A stretch of 64,000 nt of DNA from an uncultured bacterium (GTDB lineage: Bacteria; Patescibacteriota; CPR2; UBA1875; CAIMLA01): the NCBI GenBank assembly GCA_903842085.1, contig CAIMLA010000043.1:1563-65562 (forward strand), written 5' to 3'. The notes beneath the pieces are model-generated. The model saw only the letters and a list, made by a program, of their open reading frames with translations, made no database searches and had not been told where the DNA came from. Shown in pieces: positions 26,458 to 58,692 of this stretch (within the stretch, counting starts at the first letter, position 1; each line of letters starts with the position of its first letter). Made by a program: the position numbers and the translations under genes.

Positions 26458-27006
26458 ATGGAGATTGTAAATGCCTTTATTCAGCCCTTTCTTTTGTTAG
26501 CTCCCAAGATTCCAATTACGATAATTAGCTTTATCATCGGTTATGTTATTATTTGGGTCTTAATATTGATTTTGAAAAAATCAATTGCTTATCTCCGACT
26601 GACAAAATCGGTCCGGGGTCTGATTGTCGGCTGTGCCAGTGCGTTTTTGTGGGCTTTTTTGATCATGCACCTTCTAGAAATATTAGGATTAAGCAGTCTC
26701 ATTGTCCTTATTTCAGGGTCCGCCGTTTTTTTAGGCTTTATCCTAAATCAAGGCTTAGCTCAAACGATTAGTGACATCGCTTCTAGTATCTCTTTAGCTC
26801 AAGACAAGGATTTTAAAATTGGCTCGATCGTTTCGTTAAATGAAGGAAAAACAATTGGCGAGATAATTTCACTTGATATGAGAAAAGTTAGAATTATGGA
26901 CAAAAAAGGAAAATTACATGTCGTGCCAAATTCAATGATAGATAAAGGCGAGTGGATTCTTATGGAAAAACCAGTAAAGCATGAAAGTTATAAATCAAAA
27001 AAATGA
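26458..27006 (+). CDS. Small-conductance mechanosensitive channel-like membrane protein (truncated MscS architecture)
   Basis: Three TM helices followed by an MscS-like beta domain (KIGSIVSLNEGKTIGEIISLDMRKVRIMDKKGKLHVVPNSMI). Confidence 0.45.
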   Translation: MEIVNAFIQPFLLLAPKIPITIISFIIGYVIIWVLILILKKSIAYLRLTKSVRGLIVGCASAFLWAFLIMHLLEILGLSSLIVLISGSAVFLGFILNQGLAQTISDIASSISLAQDKDFKIGSIVSLNEGKTIGEIISLDMRKVRIMDKKGKLHVVPNSMIDKGEWILMEKPVKHESYKSKK

Positions 27007-27613
27007 TAACCTCTGGCTAGAGGTTGAGCGGGCCTATGACGAAGAGACACCGTCTGGCTATAAAATGGCCTGCATTGAAGCTGAGAAGGCGTTCAAAAAT
27101 GCTTTGAAAGAAAAGGGCTATCCTTATCGTGATGTTGGACAAACTCTATCACGTTTTAGTTGGAAGTTTTCGAATCGAGAAGATCTGAAAAAGGCGATTA
27201 CAAAAACCGAGCAAATAAAAGAAACCTTTGATTATCAACTTTCAAGCTTTGAGACAGAGGACATCATTGCTGCCTATAAACAATCAATAAAAGATATCGC
27301 CGAAAAAAAACCACTTTCGTGGAAGAAAAAAGCGGTTTGGTTCTACCAAGATTATTTATCTTTCAAAGCGTCGTTCATTAAAAAATTGATTATCGGCACC
27401 CTCATATTCTTTTTGATCATCAAATTTTTAGCAAAGACCTCCCTCGGGCAAAACTTAGTGGCTTTTTTGGTCTCTTTCTCGGACCTTATTTATTCGTGGT
27501 TTATGCTCTTTATAATTCTAATCATCGGAATTGGAATATTAGTGATTATAGTTTTTGCTTATCTAGAAGGTAAAAGAACCAAGATCGAAAATAATGATCA
27601 AAAAAGGACTTGA
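26981..27613 (+). CDS. Hypothetical membrane protein (C-terminal TM helices)
   Basis: 210-aa ORF overlapping the previous gene by 26 nt. Soluble N-terminal part with two hydrophobic C-terminal helices. Confidence 0.5.
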   Translation: MKVINQKNDNLWLEVERAYDEETPSGYKMACIEAEKAFKNALKEKGYPYRDVGQTLSRFSWKFSNREDLKKAITKTEQIKETFDYQLSSFETEDIIAAYKQSIKDIAEKKPLSWKKKAVWFYQDYLSFKASFIKKLIIGTLIFFLIIKFLAKTSLGQNLVAFLVSFSDLIYSWFMLFIILIIGIGILVIIVFAYLEGKRTKIENNDQKRT

Positions 27614-27716
27614 GACAACCGTCATTCCTCTATAAAATGATAGTAGTTGGGGCGATTTGATCATTAATAAAAGGCCGTTTTTTTGAGTGAGGCCTTTTTG
27701 ATTTATAAGAGGGGAT

Positions 27717-38023: not shown

Positions 38024-38912
38024 TTTACAAAAAAGCGTAACTCTCGCACCCTATACGACTTATAGAATTGGAGGTAACGCTGATTATTTTTTTGTCGCAA
38101 AAACAAAAGAAGCCTTAATCGAGGCTTTGGCGTGGGCGAGCAAGGAGGGGATAGCTTATGTCATAATCGGCGGGGGAAGCAATCTTTTAATCTCAGACGC
38201 AGGTTTCCGTGGCTTAGTTATATTAAATCGATCAAATAAATACTCAATATCTGATGGTCTGGTGATATCAGAGAGTGGGATGATTTTATCAACCCTGGCT
38301 CGAAAAACAGTTGATTTAAGTTTAAGTAATTTGGATTTTGCGATGAATATTCCGGGTACCGTTGGCGGAGCGGTTGTTGGTAATGCGGGAGCTTACGGTA
38401 AAGAAATCTCTAATTCCTTAGATTCAGCCCTGGTTTGGTCTGCCAAAGAAGGACTAAAAAAACATCTGAAGGAGGATTTAGGGTTTGCTTATCGATCGTC
38501 GACCTTAAAAAACAACCATGAATCGGTTTTAATCGAAGCCGAATTTCAAATGCAAAAAGAAGATAAGGAGCTGATGCTTGAAAAAGCTAAAAGCGATTTA
38601 GAAAAAAGAAAACATGACTATCAAGGTTTATCCTGTGGTAGCTATTTCAAAAACCCAATCAATAAAAAAATAAATTTAAACAAAGAAACGATTGATAACC
38701 CCTCAGCTGGATTATTAATTGATAGTTTAGGCTTAAAAGGGCTCTCTGTTGGTGGAGCGAGTGTTAGTAAATATCATGCTAATGTTATCGTCAATAAAAA
38801 CAAAGCAACTGCAAAAGATATTATAAATCTTGAGAAATTAATTATTAAAAAAGTGAAAGAGAGATATGATATCGAGCTACAATCAGAGGTGACAAAAATA
38901 GGTATAGTTTAG
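38013..38912 (+). CDS. murB: UDP-N-acetylenolpyruvoylglucosamine reductase
   Basis: FAD-binding N-terminus ITLAPYTTYRIGGNADYFF, GGGSNLL, and a C-terminal MurB domain. 299 aa. Confidence 0.88.
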   Translation: MLNNLQKSVTLAPYTTYRIGGNADYFFVAKTKEALIEALAWASKEGIAYVIIGGGSNLLISDAGFRGLVILNRSNKYSISDGLVISESGMILSTLARKTVDLSLSNLDFAMNIPGTVGGAVVGNAGAYGKEISNSLDSALVWSAKEGLKKHLKEDLGFAYRSSTLKNNHESVLIEAEFQMQKEDKELMLEKAKSDLEKRKHDYQGLSCGSYFKNPINKKINLNKETIDNPSAGLLIDSLGLKGLSVGGASVSKYHANVIVNKNKATAKDIINLEKLIIKKVKERYDIELQSEVTKIGIV

Positions 38913-38930
38913 TAATTTTATTTATCTTGG

Positions 38931-38966
38931 AAACAAAAAGGGTGCCGATTGGCACTCTCTATTTAT
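38931..38966 (+). terminator. Intrinsic terminator-like hairpin after murB (GTGCC-GATT-GGCAC followed by a T-rich tract)
   Basis: 5-bp GC stem followed by TCTCTATTTATTGTT. Confidence 0.45.
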
Positions 38967-38994
38967 TGTTACTAAATATTTTTCATTAGAGTTA

Positions 38995-39009
38995 TGACAA
39001 AGCAAGGTT
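38995..39009. repeat. Left copy of perfect 15-bp inverted repeat TGACAAAGCAAGGTT bounding the GC-rich island
   Basis: Its exact reverse complement occurs at 39718-39732. Confidence 0.8.
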
Positions 39010-39078
39010 GGTAAAGTATGTTGGGAGGGCGGAGCGCACAGAATGTGTGCACTCCGCCCAATGTGCGCGTTTTAAAGG

Positions 39079-39624
39079 CTAGGCCTTGGCGCGAGCCCGC
39101 TTCTTGGCGTTTTTGGTTTTGCCCCCGGCGGGGGCCGGCTTGGCCCCGCTGGACCCCTTCTCAGGGCCGGCCGTCGATGTGGCGAGCTTCCTCGCCCTCT
39201 GGGCGGCTTTTCGAGCCTCCAGAGTTTGGGGGTCGGCTTTGGCCCGCTGTGGCCGATTCAGGTTCCGGAGAACCCGAACGGCTTCAGCAAGAAAGAGGGG
39301 ATTGAGGTACCTCTCGGCACTCTCGACCCCGTGTTCCCGACAGAGGTAAAATGCTACCTCTGCGAGGAACCGTCTTGTCTGATTGAATTCTCCGTCCAAA
39401 ATCGCGGTTTTCACCGCGGAAAAATGGACGTGGTAAGCTTTCAAAGCCATGACTCGTCTCGACACCGAGTCGATCTTGACTCGGCCCTGGTTGGATATGA
39501 AGACCAACCAGCTTTCGAGGCAGCCCATCAGGGCCTCCTCAGAGTCGATGTTGAGTGCCGTTTCGAACTCCTGGTAACGCTGGGCATTCGGCCCAACGGT
39601 TATGGTGATGACGACGTCCGACAT
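39079..39624 (-). CDS. Hypothetical protein with basic Lys/Ala/Arg-rich (histone-H1-like) C-terminal tail, encoded in the GC-rich island; likely horizontally acquired
   Basis: 181-aa ORF with an AAAGGAG RBS 5 nt upstream of the ATG. Codons are GC3-rich, unlike the rest of the window. C-terminal AKKRARAKA / KPAPAGGKTKNAKK tail. A GC-rich hairpin (39024-39058) follows the stop. Confidence 0.6.
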   Translation of the reverse strand: MSDVVITITVGPNAQRYQEFETALNIDSEEALMGCLESWLVFISNQGRVKIDSVSRRVMALKAYHVHFSAVKTAILDGEFNQTRRFLAEVAFYLCREHGVESAERYLNPLFLAEAVRVLRNLNRPQRAKADPQTLEARKAAQRARKLATSTAGPEKGSSGAKPAPAGGKTKNAKKRARAKA

Positions 39625-39717
39625 CTCGACTCCTTTTGCGTGGTTTTAAGAACAAAAATATACTTTAAGGCTTTTAGAACACTACTATTTTGCAATAGAG
39701 TGACTTTAGCCTAGGAT

Positions 39718-39732
39718 AACCTTGCTTTGTCA
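39718..39732. repeat. Right copy (reverse complement) of 15-bp inverted repeat AACCTTGCTTTGTCA
   Basis: Perfect reverse complement of 38995-39009. Confidence 0.8.
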
Positions 39733-40173
39733 ATGAGCTTTGGTACTTCGAAAAAGTTTAACTCTCTCGAACAGCGAATATAATAGCATAAACAGAGCTA
39801 ATAGTCAAGTGTTTTGTGGAGACTAATTGAGAAGATATATTGCAGATAAAACAAGAAGCCGCTCGATTGACATATTCGCGAAAACACATCTCACTTGCGG
39901 CTCCAACTATAGTTTAACAACACGCCTAATTTTAGGCAGCTTGTTGTATTCAGCTATAGTCCCTCCTTTGCTAAGCCTTCAAAATACAGACTGAGTCCGT
40001 AGCTCTATTAACGCACTAGATAGCTTCTTTTATTCACTATCTAATTTGTCATAGTCGAGCGCGTAGCTCAAGCCTTGGCATCTGTATCTCTCCAGTTTAA
40101 CCGGGAGGGAGAAAAAATCGTCTTTGTGATTATTTCTCTCTCACGATTAAAGGTAAAATCATTATAACATCTT

Positions 40174-42780
40174 TTATTTTACTGTCACAGTAACATTGCT
40201 GCTAGCAGTTTGTCCAATCTTATCGGTGACTGTTGCGATAATATCAGCTGAAGCCCCTGATGGTTTATCAAAAGTTGCGACATAATTAGTCCCGTCTAGA
40301 GTTGCTTCTTTGGATTGACTGCCAATTTTGATCGTCACAGATTGAACCCCATTTGGAGCAGTTATCGTCACACTAACACTATACGGTGTCGCGAAATCGT
40401 CACTCGCTTTTAGGGTCGTAAAAGATATTGTCGGGGCGCCTTGGTTAATTGGACAGGTATCCTGGCCAATTTGTTCTGATCCAGAAGTTGAATAACCGCT
40501 ACTTGCTGTCCAAGCTCCGATCGGAGCAAACCATCTGCCATAAGAGGCATCGGTCGAAGGAATCTCGGCCGTGACGACGTTGATCGTTCTCGTCTCAATT
40601 TGAGCTGGGTCTGGAGGACAACTGTTGTTAACAAGTTTACCTGAAAGTTTATTAATTTTAAGTTCTGTAGCGGCCACAGCGTCTTGAATATTATACCAAG
40701 ATGGGAAAATATCTGTTACCGTTTTGCTCCCAGCGACTGGTTTTTTACCGGTGACGGCGTCTAGAGTCACCGTTTTTATCCCACTGGGTCTGGTAAATTG
40801 TTCATTGGGAGTCCCGTTGAGGGCGTTAATCATATAATCGTGCCAAATTGGGGCAGCCGCAATCGAACCACCGGCTTTTGTCATGGGGGTTCCATCATTA
40901 TTACCAGCCCAAACGCCTGTTACTAAGCTTGGGGTGTAACCAAGCGTCCAAGCGTCTTTGTAATCATTGGTAGTTCCGGTTTTGGCGGCGACTGGGCGAC
41001 CATGGAGCGTTAGGGGGCCACCGGTACCAAAGACATCTGCTCGGGCGTAATCATCAGATAAAACATTGCTTATCAGATATGTAATTTGTGAATCTAAGAC
41101 TTTTTTACCAGCATTTTCTTTGTATTCATCAATTGTTTTTCCTTTCGCGTCTTCAACTTTAATATACCAACTTGGGTCTTGTTTGACGCCACTATTAGCA
41201 AAAACCCCATAAGCATTGACCATATCTAAAAGCTTAACCTCTCCAGCGCCCAAGACAAGGGATAGGCCGTAAAGGCTTTTATCGTTTAAAGTTGTAATCC
41301 CCATTGCGTGGACGGTATCGATAACGTTATCAAGGCCAGCGATATAAAGTGTTTTTACCGCTGGGATATTGAGTGAGTTTTGCAAGGCGCTTCTCATCGT
41401 GACCGGTCCGCGAAATCGGCCATCATAATTACTGGGCACATAACCGCCGCCAAAATCAGTCTTTAGATCAAAGAGCACACTTCCAGGACCCCAATTATTT
41501 AACTTCCAAGCAGTTGCATAGGCAAAAGGTTTGAAAGAGGAACCAGGCTGACGATCCATAACCGCAACATTGACATTGCCATCTATATCAGGATTAAAGA
41601 AATCACGACTGCCAACCATGGCCAAGATTTGACCAGTTTTCGGATCCATCGAAACTAAGGATGCATTTGAGGCATTGTAAGCAGTCCGATTTTTGTCAAC
41701 GTTGGTTGCAACTGCCTCCTCGGCATATTGCTGTTTCGTGATATCTAAAGTGGTATAAACCTTTAAACCGCCTTCATTGACCAGTTTTTCACCGTATTTT
41801 TCGACTAGTTTTTCTTTGACATACATTACAAAGTGAGGTGCCGTGATGGAGCCATAAGGATTTTGCGAGAAGGCAACTTCTTTTTTCATGGCAGCTTCAG
41901 CATCCTTGGTCGTAATAAATTTTTGAGCGGCCATATCTTTTAAGACTTGATCTTTTCTTTTTAAGAGCAAAGCTTTATTTGTCCCGTAAGGAGAATAATA
42001 AGTTGGAGCTTGAGGCAGGGCGGCCAAGGTCGAACATTCTTCTAAACTTAAATCTTTTAAATCTTTATTAAAATAAGTTTTTGCGGCAACTTTAATCCCA
42101 TAAGCATTAGAGCCATATGGAATTTCATTGAGATACATTTTTAAAATATCGTCTTTCTTGTACATCTGTTCTATTTCGATTGAAAGGATGATCTCTTTAA
42201 TCTTGCGAGAATAAGACCTCTCGGTTGTTAGGAGGGCGTTCCGTACAAATTGTTGGGTGATTGTTGAGCCACCGCCTTTGGTGCGATCACCAGTAATAAT
42301 ACCGGAAAAAGCTCTGGCAATACCGCGGACACTAAAACCACTGTGCTTATAAAAATCTTTGTCCTCAATCGCGATCGTGGCATTTTTACAATTTTGAGGA
42401 ATCTCATCCCAGCCAGCCATGAGCCGATTTTTGTCGCCGTGGATCTCATAGAGAAGTTTTCCGTTTCGATCAAAAATCTGAGTCGATTGAGCCGAAATAC
42501 GAGCATTTATTTTGTTTGGAGTTGGTAAATCCTTGGCATACCAGGCAAAAACACCAAAGAGGAGGCCCAGAAAAACTACGGTAACGAGGCCGATTTTCTT
42601 CCAACCACTTTTTGTCGTAAAAAGTGACTTTAATGATTCTTTAAAGCCTGAGAAATTTAAATTCTTAAAGGAGAATCCCTTTTTTTGTCGAGACCGAACG
42701 GCTGTCTTGGCAGAACGAGGACGCGAAAAAGTTCGATAACTTTGTCTTGAGCGTCGCTTTCTCGGTTTATATAAAGGCAT
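40174..42780 (-). CDS. Class A penicillin-binding protein (PBP1A-type bifunctional transglycosylase/transpeptidase) with C-terminal beta-rich extension
   Basis: Basic cytoplasmic N-terminus, TM, GT51 motifs (ATIAIEDKDFYKHSGFS...RNALL), transpeptidase SSFKP, SLN and KTGTT motifs, plus about 170 aa of extra Thr/Ser/Val-rich C-terminus. GGAGAAAAA RBS. Confidence 0.9.
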   Translation of the reverse strand: MPLYKPRKRRSRQSYRTFSRPRSAKTAVRSRQKKGFSFKNLNFSGFKESLKSLFTTKSGWKKIGLVTVVFLGLLFGVFAWYAKDLPTPNKINARISAQSTQIFDRNGKLLYEIHGDKNRLMAGWDEIPQNCKNATIAIEDKDFYKHSGFSVRGIARAFSGIITGDRTKGGGSTITQQFVRNALLTTERSYSRKIKEIILSIEIEQMYKKDDILKMYLNEIPYGSNAYGIKVAAKTYFNKDLKDLSLEECSTLAALPQAPTYYSPYGTNKALLLKRKDQVLKDMAAQKFITTKDAEAAMKKEVAFSQNPYGSITAPHFVMYVKEKLVEKYGEKLVNEGGLKVYTTLDITKQQYAEEAVATNVDKNRTAYNASNASLVSMDPKTGQILAMVGSRDFFNPDIDGNVNVAVMDRQPGSSFKPFAYATAWKLNNWGPGSVLFDLKTDFGGGYVPSNYDGRFRGPVTMRSALQNSLNIPAVKTLYIAGLDNVIDTVHAMGITTLNDKSLYGLSLVLGAGEVKLLDMVNAYGVFANSGVKQDPSWYIKVEDAKGKTIDEYKENAGKKVLDSQITYLISNVLSDDYARADVFGTGGPLTLHGRPVAAKTGTTNDYKDAWTLGYTPSLVTGVWAGNNDGTPMTKAGGSIAAAPIWHDYMINALNGTPNEQFTRPSGIKTVTLDAVTGKKPVAGSKTVTDIFPSWYNIQDAVAATELKINKLSGKLVNNSCPPDPAQIETRTINVVTAEIPSTDASYGRWFAPIGAWTASSGYSTSGSEQIGQDTCPINQGAPTISFTTLKASDDFATPYSVSVTITAPNGVQSVTIKIGSQSKEATLDGTNYVATFDKPSGASADIIATVTDKIGQTASSNVTVTVK

Positions 42781-58215: not shown

Positions 58216-58692
58216 ATGCCAAGAGATCCTAGAAAAGTTGCCAAGAGAAAACTAGACCCAGATATGAAATACCAAAGTATCTTGGTCACAAAATTTATAA
58301 ATAAAATTATGCTAGATGGCAAAAAAGCCTTAGCCACAAATCTTGTCTATGGTGCTTTTGAACAAATCGAAAAAGATACTGGAAAACCAGCTCTAGAAAT
58401 TTTCGAACAAGCGATAAAAAATGTTTCGCCAGTTCTGCAAGTTAAATCACGCAGAATTGGTGGCGCCAATTATCAAGTCCCAATGGAAGTCAAAGGACAA
58501 AGACGACTTCACTACGGATTCGTCTGGATTAGAGAAGCGGCGAGAAGCCGTTCCGGCGTCTCTTATGATAAGGCCTTAGCCCAAGAAATCATTGATGCTT
58601 ATAAAAATACTGGTACCGCCATCAAGAAAAGAGAAGAGACACACAAGATGGCAGAGGCGAACAAAGCCTTTGCTCACTTTGCTCGGTACTAA
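58216..58692 (+). CDS. rpsG: 30S ribosomal protein S7
   Basis: MPRDPRKVAKRKLDPDMKYQS...LVTKFINKIMLDGKK. 158 aa. Confidence 0.93.
   Translation: MPRDPRKVAKRKLDPDMKYQSILVTKFINKIMLDGKKALATNLVYGAFEQIEKDTGKPALEIFEQAIKNVSPVLQVKSRRIGGANYQVPMEVKGQRRLHYGFVWIREAARSRSGVSYDKALAQEIIDAYKNTGTAIKKREETHKMAEANKAFAHFARY

What the first reader, a model, noticed from the sequence alone, without database searches (positions are those of the whole stretch)
38995..39732. About 0.74-kb G+C-rich island bounded by a perfect 15-bp inverted repeat, carrying a single foreign-looking gene with a histone-H1-like basic tail
Between the murB terminator and the 3' end of the PBP gene lies a segment whose G+C is far above the AT-rich background (roughly 60% by eye; long runs such as GCCCCCGGCGGGGGCCGGCTTGGCCCCGCTGG). 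The segment is delimited by TGACAAAGCAAGGTT (38995-39009) and its exact reverse complement (39718-39732). The outer ends read TG...CA, as in many transposon termini. Inside is one minus-strand ORF of 181 aa. It has a good RBS (AAAGGAG) and GC3-dominated codons; its N-terminal domain could not be assigned to a family, and its C-terminal Lys/Ala/Arg-rich tail (…KPAPAGGKTKNAKKRARAKA) resembles H1/HU-extension nucleoid proteins. A GC-clamped hairpin follows the stop. A chance 15-nt perfect inverted repeat within under 1 kb is improbable in a 64-kb window (crude expectation about 0.05). Together with the compositional jump, this points to a horizontally acquired, possibly mobilisable cassette of unknown function, or to an assembly chimera. 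No transposase or integrase is present.
Basis: seen in the sequence. Interest (0 to 1): 0.78.

Follow-up and report, generated by a model that had tools for sequence, protein, structure and literature searches.

The report
Foreign GC-rich gene with end-paired mRNA
A real, anciently imported single gene sits in this AT-rich bacterial genome, and its "inverted repeat" most likely pairs the two ends of a very tightly folded messenger RNA that encodes a small, strongly basic protein from a rare, undescribed family.

Summary
A GC-rich segment (up to 0.66 GC against 0.40 for the window) holds a perfect 15-nt inverted repeat (38995-39009 / 39718-39732) and a genuine 181-aa gene (dN/dS 0.15-0.33).

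It is not an assembly chimera. The same arrangement occurs in assemblies from ENA, JGI, NCBI and Logan, across at least five diverged lineages. The two nearest outgroups have an empty site, so about 930 bp was inserted between murB and a conserved non-coding RNA.

The repeat is unlikely to mark transposon ends:
- The promoter, a 5'-terminal hairpin and the terminator lie outside it but belong to the insert.
- There is no target-site duplication, no recombinase and no inverted copy.

Both arms are transcribed. They are predicted to pair with P about 0.97 in five homologues and carry two compensatory changes in a distant relative. The coding region is far more folded than synonymous-codon shuffles allow.

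The protein has a confidently modelled helical domain with no detectable homologue by sequence or fold search. Its alleles are swapped between near-identical genomes. The 60-aa tail is conserved and carries a net charge of +13 to +17. Only about 15 relatives exist in 15 billion proteins; the three outside this clade whose upstream DNA could be read lie just downstream of tRNA genes.

GC3 is decaying, which indicates a foreign origin. Function is unknown; the best guess is a stable-mRNA module for a nucleic-acid-binding protein.

The parts
38913..39845 (-). Whole inserted segment (about 930 bp) relative to the empty site in outgroup genomes. It lies between the murB stop and the 3' end of a conserved non-coding RNA.
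   Evidence: In L021/L022 (MurB 60% identical) the murB stop is followed within about 35 nt by the non-coding RNA block and then the PBP gene. L024 (MurB 52%) has that block between a DNA-glycosylase gene that follows murB and the PBP gene. None has the island. The boundaries are approximate.
39780..39808 (-). Sigma-70-type promoter TTGACT-17-TATTAT with a TG extended -10. It lies outside the inverted repeat.
   Evidence: Consensus scan gives 10 of 12 matches. It is nearly identical in L001, L007 and L014. Distant relatives L011 and L026 have their own good promoters at the same distance from the 5' arm, with different sequence.
39746..39772 (-). Stem-loop at the predicted 5' end of the transcript (GUUCGAGAGAG-UUAAA-CUUUUUCGAAG).
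   Evidence: Predicted in the minimum-energy folds of all five full transcripts. RNAalifold helix 1 is 91% paired, with G.U/A-U alternations on the sense strand. L011 and L026 have a hairpin of different sequence at the same place.
39718..39732 (-). 5' arm of the inverted repeat (UGACAAAGCAAGGUU in the transcript), about 42 nt after the predicted start.
   Evidence: It is invariant in the clade. The motif TTGACAAAGCAAG(G/A)(G/T)T is kept in L011 and L026, whose proteins are 25-32% identical.
39668..39712 (-). Leader hairpin directly after the 5' arm, capped by a GNRA tetraloop.
   Evidence: The window has CUAUU-GCAA-AAUAG; L001, L007 and L014 have CUAUC-GAAA-GAUAG, a compensatory U-A to C-G change. 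L011 and L026 have an equivalent hairpin with compensatory changes in its outer stem.
39657..39667 (-). Possible second 5' segment of the closing helix (UAAAGUAUAU). It pairs with 39012-39022.
   Evidence: Inverted repeat I6, 11 nt, 91% complementary. It is in the minimum-energy fold of the window and L007 but not L001 or L014. A non-compensated change occurs in L014. Support is weak.
39630..39636 (-). Shine-Dalgarno sequence AAAGGAG, 5 nt before the ATG (39622-39624).
   Evidence: Read directly from the sequence.
39262..39624 (-). Codons 1-121: variable all-helical N-terminal domain.
39082..39261 (-). Codons 122-181: conserved basic tail (RPxR, ARKLATSxAGP, GGKTKNAKKR); stop codon at 39079-39081.
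   Evidence: Net charge is +14 over 60 aa, pI 11.9. The motifs are conserved in relatives down to 21% identity. pLDDT is below 50 for residues 151-181.
39027..39059 (-). GC-rich hairpin just after the stop, with 14-nt arms (13 complementary plus one G.U wobble); it has no U-run and so is not an intrinsic terminator.
   Evidence: L014 has two compensatory pairs, and the window and L007 have U.G wobbles on the sense strand. L011, L010 and L025 have a hairpin of different sequence at the same place.
38995..39009 (-). 3' arm of the inverted repeat (AACCUUGCUUUGUCA in the transcript), about 40 nt before the terminator.
   Evidence: Predicted pairing with the 5' arm has mean P = 0.97-0.98 in full-length transcripts of the window, L001, L014, L007 and L011. 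L011 carries ACUC where the window has AACC, compensating GAGU for GGUU in the 5' arm.
38939..38958 (.). Bidirectional intrinsic terminator shared by murB (plus strand) and the island gene (minus strand).
   Evidence: Terminator scan finds it on both strands. It is conserved in relatives.

Best explanation
The segment is an old, horizontally acquired single-gene expression module that this bacterial clade has since inherited vertically. It is not a transposon.

**Transcript architecture**
- A strong promoter drives a transcript of about 840 nt.
- A stem-loop sits at the predicted 5' end.
- The 15-nt inverted repeat is a long-range helix that pairs the 5' leader with the 3' untranslated region and closes the whole mRNA.
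- The GC-rich coding region is packed with hairpins.
- A long GC hairpin follows the stop codon.

**Proposed mechanism**
- I infer that this architecture makes a compact, nuclease-resistant message, or one that is processed in the double-stranded stalk.
- The message encodes a small protein: a variable helical N-terminal domain plus a conserved, highly basic, disordered tail.
- The tail most likely binds nucleic acid, possibly the conserved stem and leader of its own mRNA.
- The high GC is mainly a legacy of a GC-rich donor and is now eroding.

**Shown**
- The gene is real and under purifying selection.
- The segment is an insertion relative to outgroups, and its synteny in the clade is old.
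- The pairing is conserved and covaries.
- Folding exceeds what synonymous-codon shuffles produce.
- Alleles are exchanged within the N-terminal coding region.

**Inferred**
- That the pairing acts in RNA rather than DNA.
- That its role is stability or processing.
- That the protein binds nucleic acid.
For: **Real gene**
- dN/dS is 0.15-0.33 within allele type A.
- GC3 > GC1 > GC2.
- About 15 homologous clusters exist.

**Insertion, then vertical descent**
- Outgroups have empty sites.
- The same synteny is seen in five lineages.
- Island dS is 1.03 against 1.06 for murB, window versus L001.
- Third positions are decaying towards AT: 13:1 in the window and 25:2 in L025, with murB balanced.

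**Both arms are transcribed**
- The promoter lies upstream of the 5' arm.
- The only U-run terminator lies downstream of the 3' arm.

**Pairing**
- P is 0.97-0.98 in five full-length transcripts, including L011, whose protein is about 32% identical.
- The helix is 97% paired with two compensatory pairs.
- The structure has six compensatory pairs overall against 1.8 in shuffles (0 of 500 shuffles reach it).
- G.U wobbles fall on the sense strand.

**The functional unit extends outside the repeat**
- Leader length is 152-161 nt in all lineages.
- In all of them a promoter plus a 5' hairpin of unrelated sequence precede the conserved 5' arm.

**Excess mRNA structure**
- The whole transcript has z = -12.6.
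- The coding region against synonymous-codon shuffles has z = -6.2 in the window copy and is negative in all 10 family members (mean about -3.3).
- Thirteen control genes from the window average -0.45.

**Protein**
- The helical domain is modelled with high confidence.
- The tail has net charge +11 to +17 and conserved motifs.
Against: - There are no expression data. The promoter, the transcript ends and every RNA fold are predictions.
- The 15 nt are invariant in the close clade, so the covariation rests on one distant relative, L011. A DNA repeat recognised by one protein at both ends would covary in the same way.
- The sequence of the 5' arm is conserved across very distant members, not just its ability to pair. 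That suggests a sequence-specific partner, which the RNA-helix model alone does not explain.
- The hairpin-rich coding region folds about as well on the antisense strand.
- One family member, L010, has no closing helix.
- The nucleic-acid-binding role is inferred from charge alone.
- No known fold or family supports any specific function.
Confidence: 0.5

Rival explanations
1. The inverted repeats are DNA-level termini of a small non-autonomous mobile cassette (MITE-like, or recombinase-dependent) that is moved in trans.
For: - The 15-nt repeat is perfect and has TG...CA ends.
- Between the two distant members L011 and L026, nucleotide homology begins exactly at the 5' arm.
- The family occurs in at least four unrelated genomic contexts with foreign composition.
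- In L011 an 11-nt direct repeat of the tRNA 3' end brackets the island, as after site-specific integration.
Against: - There is no target-site duplication next to the arms.
- There is no other copy in the 64-kb window.
- No transposase or integrase lies in or beside the element in any locus.
- The insert extends about 80-115 nt beyond each arm relative to the empty site. It includes a promoter, a 5' hairpin and a terminator, which are functionally conserved in every context.
- The att-like repeat in L011 lies outside the inverted repeat.
- Recombination breakpoints lie inside the coding region.
- There are no homologues in IMG/VR viral contigs, GenBank phages or PLSDB plasmids.
Confidence: 0.12
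2. The repeat defines an invertible DNA switch. A recombinase encoded elsewhere flips the 708-bp segment and so uncouples the gene from the promoter, which lies outside the repeat (phase variation).
For: - The promoter is outside the repeat and the gene is inside it.
- Many contigs break at or near the locus, which would fit population heterogeneity.
Against: - All contigs spanning a junction, from four repositories, show the same orientation relative to murB.
- The contig breaks are explained by co-existing divergent N-terminal alleles.
- No recombinase is nearby.
- A promoter-outside, whole-gene-inside design with a conserved 5' hairpin and leader is not that of known invertons.
Confidence: 0.05
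3. The module is a hok-like addiction or toxin gene. The fold-back of the 3' end onto the 5' leader keeps a very stable mRNA inert until it is processed, and this selfishness explains its persistence and spread.
For: - A conserved 5'-3' fold-back with covariation and an unusually structured, probably long-lived mRNA.
- Patchy, selfish-looking distribution.
- In the window copy, the Shine-Dalgarno sequence and the AUG are sequestered, with mean P(unpaired) of 0.11.
Against: - Sequestration of the translation start is not conserved. The four relatives score 0.42-0.58, the same as 12 control genes (mean 0.43).
- The product is a 181-aa soluble basic protein, not a small hydrophobic peptide.
- No antisense promoter is predicted in the leader.
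- No toxin, antitoxin or defence model matches.
Confidence: 0.08
4. The two arms are DNA operator sites for one protein, possibly the gene's own product, which loops the DNA between +45 and the 3' end to repress the gene.
For: The arm sequence itself is conserved across distant members, not only its complementarity. The product is strongly basic.
Against: - Nothing distinguishes this from the RNA model except sequence conservation.
- The G.U wobbles in neighbouring helices, and the structural but not sequence conservation of the 5' hairpin, point to RNA-level selection across the leader.
- The protein shows no helix-turn-helix or other DNA-binding fold.
Confidence: 0.08
5. The feature is an artefact: an assembly chimera, a contaminant, or a spurious ORF in a GC-rich non-coding RNA.
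For: In GC-rich DNA long ORFs arise easily. The codon-aligned antisense frame is also open.
Against: - Identical junctions occur in many independent assemblies.
- dN/dS is well below 1.
- GC3/GC1/GC2 periodicity is present.
- A profile search finds relatives with conserved motifs.
- The AlphaFold2 domain model is confident from only 7 sequences.
Confidence: 0.01

Closest known systems
hok mRNA of the hok/sok family (fold-back inhibition: the 3' end pairs with the 5' end; covariation described by the Gerdes laboratory; recalled from my own knowledge)
   Same: A protein-coding mRNA is closed by a phylogenetically conserved, covarying 5'-3' long-range helix. The transcript is compact and highly structured, and the gene has a selfish-looking distribution.
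   Different: The product here is a 181-aa soluble basic protein, not a roughly 50-aa membrane toxin. No antisense RNA promoter is predicted. Sequestration of the translation start is not conserved. No sequence relationship exists.
RNase III processing stalks that bracket 16S and 23S rRNA and some phage mRNAs (recalled from my own knowledge)
   Same: Inverted repeats hundreds of nucleotides apart lie within one transcript and form a near-perfect duplex that brackets the functional RNA.
   Different: Here the duplex brackets an ORF, and it is 15 bp plus a weak 8-bp extension. Cleavage is untested. No rRNA or tRNA lies inside it.
5'-terminal stem-loop mRNA stabilisers (ompA leader in E. coli, aprE and SP82 leaders in Bacillus; recalled from my own knowledge)
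   Same: A hairpin sits within a few nucleotides of the predicted transcript start. Its structure is conserved but its sequence is not.
   Different: In this locus it is combined with a 5'-3' closing helix and a hairpin-saturated coding region. The transcript start is predicted, not mapped.
Small integrative islets at the 3' end of tRNA, tmRNA or other stable-RNA genes
   Same: In all four contexts the gene lies just downstream of, and in the same orientation as, a stable-RNA gene: tRNA in L010, L011 and L026, and a ~290-nt non-coding RNA here. L011 has an 11-nt direct repeat of the tRNA 3' end on the far side.
   Different: No integrase is present in any locus. The islets are only about 0.9-1.3 kb. 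No att-like repeat is found in the window.
MITEs and transposons bounded by terminal inverted repeats; Hin/Gin-type invertible segments
   Same: A short perfect inverted repeat flanks a segment of about 0.7 kb.
   Different: There is no target-site duplication, no other copies, no transposase or invertase, and only one orientation is seen. The conserved functional unit extends outside the repeat.
Histone-H1-like and nucleoid-protein basic tails (chlamydial Hc1, mycobacterial HupB C-terminal extension, Lsr2/H-NS type two-domain silencers)
   Same: A small protein with a folded N-terminal domain and a flexible, very basic C-terminal region rich in Lys, Arg, Ala, Pro and Gly.
   Different: There are no K/A/P repeats. 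Instead, position-specific motifs are conserved over deep divergence. No Pfam or PDB similarity is found. DNA binding is untested.

Membership tests
Transposable element bounded by terminal inverted repeats / MITE | Terminal inverted repeats | tested here: met
   A 15-nt perfect repeat.
Transposable element bounded by terminal inverted repeats / MITE | Target-site duplication directly flanking the repeats | tested here: not met
   In gene orientation the flanks read ...GCTCAT|TGACA... and ...TGTCA|TAACTC..., with no direct repeat.
Transposable element bounded by terminal inverted repeats / MITE | Element boundaries (occupied versus empty site) coincide with the repeats | tested here: not met
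   The insert relative to L021, L022 and L024 is about 930 bp. It extends about 80 nt and about 115 nt beyond the arms and includes the promoter and the terminator.
Transposable element bounded by terminal inverted repeats / MITE | Transposase, or multiple dispersed copies | tested here: not met
   No recombinase domain is found. Only the two arms match in the 64-kb window. The rest of the genome was not available.
Invertible DNA switch (Hin/Gin/Fim type) | Both orientations present in populations | tested here: not met
   All assembled contigs spanning a junction show one orientation. Reads could not be examined.
Invertible DNA switch (Hin/Gin/Fim type) | Site-specific recombinase encoded in or beside the segment | tested here: not met
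   The ORF has no resolvase or integrase domain, and the neighbours are ClpC, PIN-TRAM, MurB, PBP1 and TyrRS.
hok-type fold-back mRNA (type I toxin-antitoxin) | Conserved, covarying pairing of the 5' and 3' ends of the mRNA | tested here: met
   P is 0.97-0.98 in five homologues, with two compensatory pairs. This rests on prediction only.
hok-type fold-back mRNA (type I toxin-antitoxin) | Small hydrophobic toxin ORF, antisense RNA, and a sequestered translation start | tested here: not met
   The product is a 181-aa soluble protein. No antisense promoter is predicted. Start-site accessibility equals that of controls in 4 of 5 homologues.
H1 / Hc1 / HU-extension nucleoid proteins | Sequence membership (Pfam families) or K/A/P repeat tail | tested here: not met
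   No Pfam hit for any of 18 family members scanned. The tail is basic (+14) but non-repetitive, with conserved motifs.
H1 / Hc1 / HU-extension nucleoid proteins | DNA binding and compaction | not testable with these tools
   This needs a gel shift or in-vivo localisation.
Integrative islet at the 3' end of a stable-RNA gene | Located immediately 3' of a tRNA or small-RNA gene, in the same orientation | tested here: met
   Downstream of a non-coding RNA in the window, tRNA-Gln in L010, a tRNA in L011 and a tRNA 3' end in L026.
Integrative islet at the 3' end of a stable-RNA gene | att direct repeats and an integrase | tested here: inconclusive
   An 11-nt repeat of the tRNA 3' end brackets the L011 islet. 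None is found in the window or L010. No integrase is present anywhere.
RNase III processing stalk | Long-range duplex bracketing the mature RNA within one transcript | tested here: inconclusive
   A 15-bp perfect duplex is predicted, with a weak 8-bp extension. Cleavage is not testable here.
Known RNA families (Rfam 15) | Covariance-model match to the leader, untranslated regions or coding region | tested here: not met
   Nothing meaningful at E <= 10 in 38850-40250 (five chance-level microRNA, snoRNA and sRNA matches, all far below gathering score). Nothing beyond a tRNA and one chance-level snoRNA match at E <= 1 in L011, L026, L012, L025 and L014.

The most novel reading that the evidence does not exclude
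The module may be an RNA-centred selfish element. On this reading, the unit under selection, and possibly the unit that is transferred, is a ribonucleoprotein. It would consist of the GC-rich, hairpin-saturated transcript with paired ends, bound by its own basic-tailed protein, somewhat like a capsid-less virus or delta-agent-like entity that has a DNA copy parked next to stable-RNA genes.

This reading would account for several observations together:
- The foreign composition in several unrelated AT-rich genomes.
- The co-conservation of the protein tail motifs with the RNA arm and leader motifs. Both are missing in L010.
- The excess structure at synonymous sites.
- The nearly stop-free codon-aligned antisense frame (5 stops observed against 21.8 expected).
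- The rapid exchange of N-terminal alleles.
Probability: 0.06. Interest if true: 0.9.

Novelty: categorically new. Interest (0 to 1): 0.62.

Why it matters
**If the main reading is right**
- This is an undescribed protein family, with only about 15 clusters among roughly 15 billion predicted proteins.
- It travels with its own conserved RNA architecture: a 5' hairpin, a leader element and a 5'-3' closing helix.
- It would be a natural bacterial example of an mRNA built to be closed and hyper-structured. That makes it a testable model for how end-pairing controls mRNA stability or processing outside the hok paradigm.

**Evolutionary points**
- A very small integrase-less islet has persisted through about one synonymous substitution per site.
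- Its composition is still far from that of the host.
- Alleles of one protein domain are swapped between otherwise identical genomes. That pattern is usually associated with conflict or recognition functions.

**Practical points**
- The finding warns against reading "inverted repeat plus GC jump" as a transposon.
- A conserved, unclassified non-coding RNA lies next door and is a second lead.

Tried and rejected
**Homology and fold searches that found nothing**
- Pfam, PHROGs, NCBIfam and PADLOC for the ORF and for family members. One sub-threshold DUF4427 hit in a single member was ignored.
- PDB sequence profile search.
- Rfam at gathering and E-value thresholds.
- IMG/VR viral contigs, GenBank phages and PLSDB plasmids.

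**Searches with limited yield**
- The genome-collection scan found only one GTDB species. The metagenome scan added only clade members.
- Taxonomy of the host could not be established. NCBI labels the related genome only as "bacterium".

**Ideas considered and rejected**
- *Diversity-generating retroelement as the cause of the N-terminal hypervariability.* Rejected: no reverse transcriptase or template repeat is nearby, and the L007/L008 differences are mostly synonymous (dN/dS about 0.23), which fits imported alleles.
- *GC-richness actively maintained by selection.* Weakened: third-position changes are strongly directional towards AT. Excess structure at synonymous sites is real, however.
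- *Conserved sequestration of the ribosome-binding site.* Rejected.
- *The 3' arm as a duplicated attachment site.* A 9-nt match (CCUUGCUUU) exists between the 3' arm and the non-coding RNA terminator of outgroup L021. I treated it as coincidence, because L011 and L026 keep the same arm next to unrelated tRNAs.
- *The antisense ORF as a second gene.* Not pursued: it has no start codon or ribosome-binding-site context, and avoidance of UA-ending codons in GC-rich genes could explain the open frame.

**Other notes**
- Two helices (3 and 5) in my hand-typed structure string for one search were one column out of register. Only helices 1, 2, 4 and 6 of that call are used.
- Literature search gave nothing relevant. 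One query was malformed.
Full report
**1.

- GC in 200-nt windows rises to 0.64-0.66 at 39000-39300, against 0.28-0.43 on either side. It is the strongest GC peak in the window, whose mean is 0.403 with sd 0.041.
- TGACAAAGCAAGGTT (38995-39009) and its exact reverse complement (39718-39732) are the only matches in the window at up to 2 mismatches.
- A perfect inverted repeat of at least 15 nt within 1 kb is expected about 0.1 times per window. On its own it is only mildly surprising.
- The 181-aa minus-strand ORF (39079-39624) has a Shine-Dalgarno sequence and GC1/GC2/GC3 of 0.60/0.46/0.72. Other genes in the window have GC3 of 0.31-0.42.

**2. It is a real gene and not an assembly artefact**

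- The ORF has close relatives of 99%, 71-73% and 65% identity ("type A") and of 43-47% identity ("type B").
- Every one whose downstream flank could be aligned lies in the same place, convergent with murB; where the upstream DNA extends far enough (L001-L003, L006), the PBP1 gene follows. The contigs come from ENA, JGI, NCBI and Logan assemblies of different samples; L025 keeps the 3' arm but not an alignable downstream flank.
- dN/dS is 0.15-0.33 within type A.
- In those relatives the gene is even more GC-rich than here (GC 0.63-0.65, GC3 0.83-0.84), while the rest of each locus is 0.40.

**3. It is an old insertion**

- A MurB search shows that the lineages carrying the island have MurB 78-80% identical to the window's. 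The next relatives are at 60% and 52%.
- In the 60% relative (L021/L022) murB is followed within about 35 nt by a conserved ~290-nt non-coding block and then the PBP gene. In the 52% relative (L024) the block lies between a DNA-glycosylase gene that follows murB and the PBP gene. Neither has the island.
- The insert is therefore about 930 bp (roughly 38913-39845). It includes sequence outside both repeat arms.
- Synonymous divergence of the island between the window and L001 is 1.03, equal to that of murB at 1.06. The island was probably present before these lineages split.
- Its composition is not at equilibrium. Lineage-specific third-position changes run GC-to-AT versus AT-to-GC at 13:1 in the window copy and 25:2 in L025 (GC3 0.55). 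For murB they are balanced.
- The GC-richness is thus mainly a decaying legacy of a GC-rich source. One family member sits on a GC-rich contig (L012; gene GC 0.77, GC3 0.96).

**4. The repeat is functional, but it does not bound the unit**

- Alignment of the window with L001, L007, L008 and L014 shows a block that is more conserved than the neighbouring housekeeping genes. It comprises, in order:
  - a consensus promoter (39808-39780; TTGACT-17-TATTAT with an extended -10);
  - a hairpin at the predicted transcript start;
  - the 5' arm and a leader hairpin;
  - the last ~60 codons, a GC hairpin and the 3' arm.
- The only U-run terminator lies downstream of the 3' arm and is shared with murB. 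Both arms are therefore inside the predicted transcript.
- Full-length transcripts of the window, L001, L014, L007 and the distant L011 all pair the arms with mean probability 0.97-0.98.
- In L011 the arms read ...AAGAGU and ACUCUU..., against ...AAGGUU and AACCUU... here. These are two compensatory pairs.
- Other helices also covary:
  - the leader tetraloop stem changes from CUAUU-GCAA-AAUAG to CUAUC-GAAA-GAUAG;
  - the 3' hairpin has two compensatory pairs in L014;
  - G.U wobbles fall on the sense strand.
- Overall, six pairs show double changes against 1.8 in shuffles; 0 of 500 shuffles reach the observed value.

**5. Distant members show the same design in other genomic places**

- A profile search of 1.84 billion representatives found only ten hits. 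Contexts could be read for several of them:
  - L011 (P0015) and L026 (P0012) lie downstream of tRNA genes in AT-richer DNA, with GC3 of 0.92 and 0.83;
  - L010 (P0010) lies directly after tRNA-Gln.
- L011 and L026 each have their own strong promoter and a 5' hairpin of unrelated sequence. These are followed by the conserved TTGACAAAGCAAGAGT and an equivalent leader hairpin.
- The distance from the -10 box to the start codon is 152-161 nt in every lineage.
- The promoter and 5' hairpin are conserved in function but not in sequence, and they lie outside the repeat. That is what an RNA-level design predicts and what a transposon-end model does not.
- In all four contexts the gene follows a stable-RNA gene in the same orientation.
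- In L011 an 11-nt direct repeat of the tRNA 3' end reappears beyond the island. This hints at integrase-type insertion, although no integrase is present anywhere.

**6. The message is exceptionally structured**

- The 806-nt stretch spanning the transcript (38985-39790, minus strand) folds at -354.9 kcal/mol, against -258 for dinucleotide shuffles (z = -12.6).
- Shuffling synonymous codons within the coding region, which keeps the protein and the codon usage, gives z = -6.2 for the window copy. The value is negative for all ten family members (-1.3 to -6.2).
- Thirteen control genes from the window average -0.45. The only strong outlier is rpsG.
- Both strands fold about equally well, so this measure alone does not prove RNA.
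- The ribosome-binding site is buried only in the window copy (P unpaired 0.11). In relatives it is as open as in controls (0.42-0.58 against 0.43). A hok-like translational lock is therefore not a conserved feature.

**7. The protein**

- AlphaFold2, using seven sequences, gives a confident all-helical domain (block-mean pLDDT about 90 or above for residues 21-120) and a disordered tail.
- No fold match was found in PDB or BFVD, and no sequence match in PDB, Pfam or defence models.
- The N-terminal domain keeps only structural-looking invariant residues: E37, A63, F86 and L94.
- The last ~60 residues carry conserved motifs (LRNxxRP, ARKLATSxAGP, GGKTKNAKKR). They have net charge +11 to +17 and pI about 12.
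- One 429-aa member joins the same tail to a different N-terminal region.
- The tail is therefore a specific module and not a generic H1-like low-complexity tail. Nucleic-acid binding is an inference from charge.

**8. The N-terminal domain is a hotspot of allele exchange**

- L007 and L008 are identical over more than 2 kb of flank, the leader, the tail and the 3' untranslated region. They are only 76-88% identical over about 400 nt of N-terminal coding sequence (dS 0.58, dN 0.13).
- Type A (L014) and type B (L007) alleles occur in the same metagenome, with a 97% identical upstream flank.
- The breakpoints lie inside the gene, not at the repeat.
- This polymorphism explains why many contigs end at this locus.

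**9. Verdict**

- The segment is not recent, not a chimera, and probably not a cassette bounded by transposon ends.
- The best-supported reading is a self-contained, imported gene whose mRNA is closed by the "inverted repeat". The mRNA is built for stability or processing and encodes a small, probably nucleic-acid-binding protein of an undescribed, very rare family.
- Function remains unknown, and nothing here has expression or biochemical support.

Noticed in passing
window 39846-40140, minus strand: A conserved, structured non-coding RNA of about 290 nt lies between the PBP1 stop and the island promoter. On four sequences the minus strand gives a consensus fold of -76.5 kcal/mol with 83 pairs, 21 of them compensatory. 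The plus strand gives -37.4. It ends in a terminator-like hairpin and has invariant loops (GAAUAAAAGAAGC, UUUUCGCGAA). It is also present in the outgroups that lack the island. No Rfam family matches at E <= 10.
   Followed up: partly
L011 62-72 and 1402-1412: An 11-nt direct repeat, GGGTCACCATT, occurs at the 3' end of the upstream tRNA and again about 190 nt beyond the island's 3' arm. The two copies bracket a 1.3-kb islet like attL/attR, but no integrase is present.
   Followed up: partly
window 39079-39624, plus strand, codon-aligned antisense frame (also listed as ORF 39226-39714): The antisense frame has no stop across the whole coding region in 7 of 10 family members. Five stops are observed against 21.8 expected from the use of A at third positions in other codon families. 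This may only reflect avoidance of UUA, CUA and UCA in GC-rich genes.
   Followed up: partly
L004 1-133, against L001 5673-5805: Two contigs of the same species, with an identical island protein, have unrelated sequence immediately upstream of the -35 box. L007 and L014 have a third version. The upstream boundary of the module is therefore a structural-variation point, and contigs end shortly beyond it.
   Followed up: partly
window 58216-58692: The ribosomal protein S7 gene is the only control gene with strong excess mRNA structure at synonymous sites (z = -4.65). This may reflect an embedded regulatory structure.
   Followed up: no
window 26988-27001 and 27695-27708: A second long perfect inverted repeat (14 nt) brackets an ORF of 210 aa (26981-27613) that has no Pfam match. 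It is within chance expectation for the window but has the same geometry as the island repeat.
   Followed up: no
window 39082-39261, against L007 and L018: The tail-coding region of the window copy is closer at synonymous sites to the type B alleles (dS 0.66-0.71) than to the type A allele of L001 (dS 1.10). This suggests past recombination between allele types.
   Followed up: partly
L010 1415-2180: The family member P0010 lacks both the terminal GGxTxNAKKR motif and the 5'-3' closing helix. It keeps the position after a tRNA, a strong promoter and a 3' GC hairpin. This is a single case of the protein tail motif and the RNA arms being lost together.
   Followed up: partly
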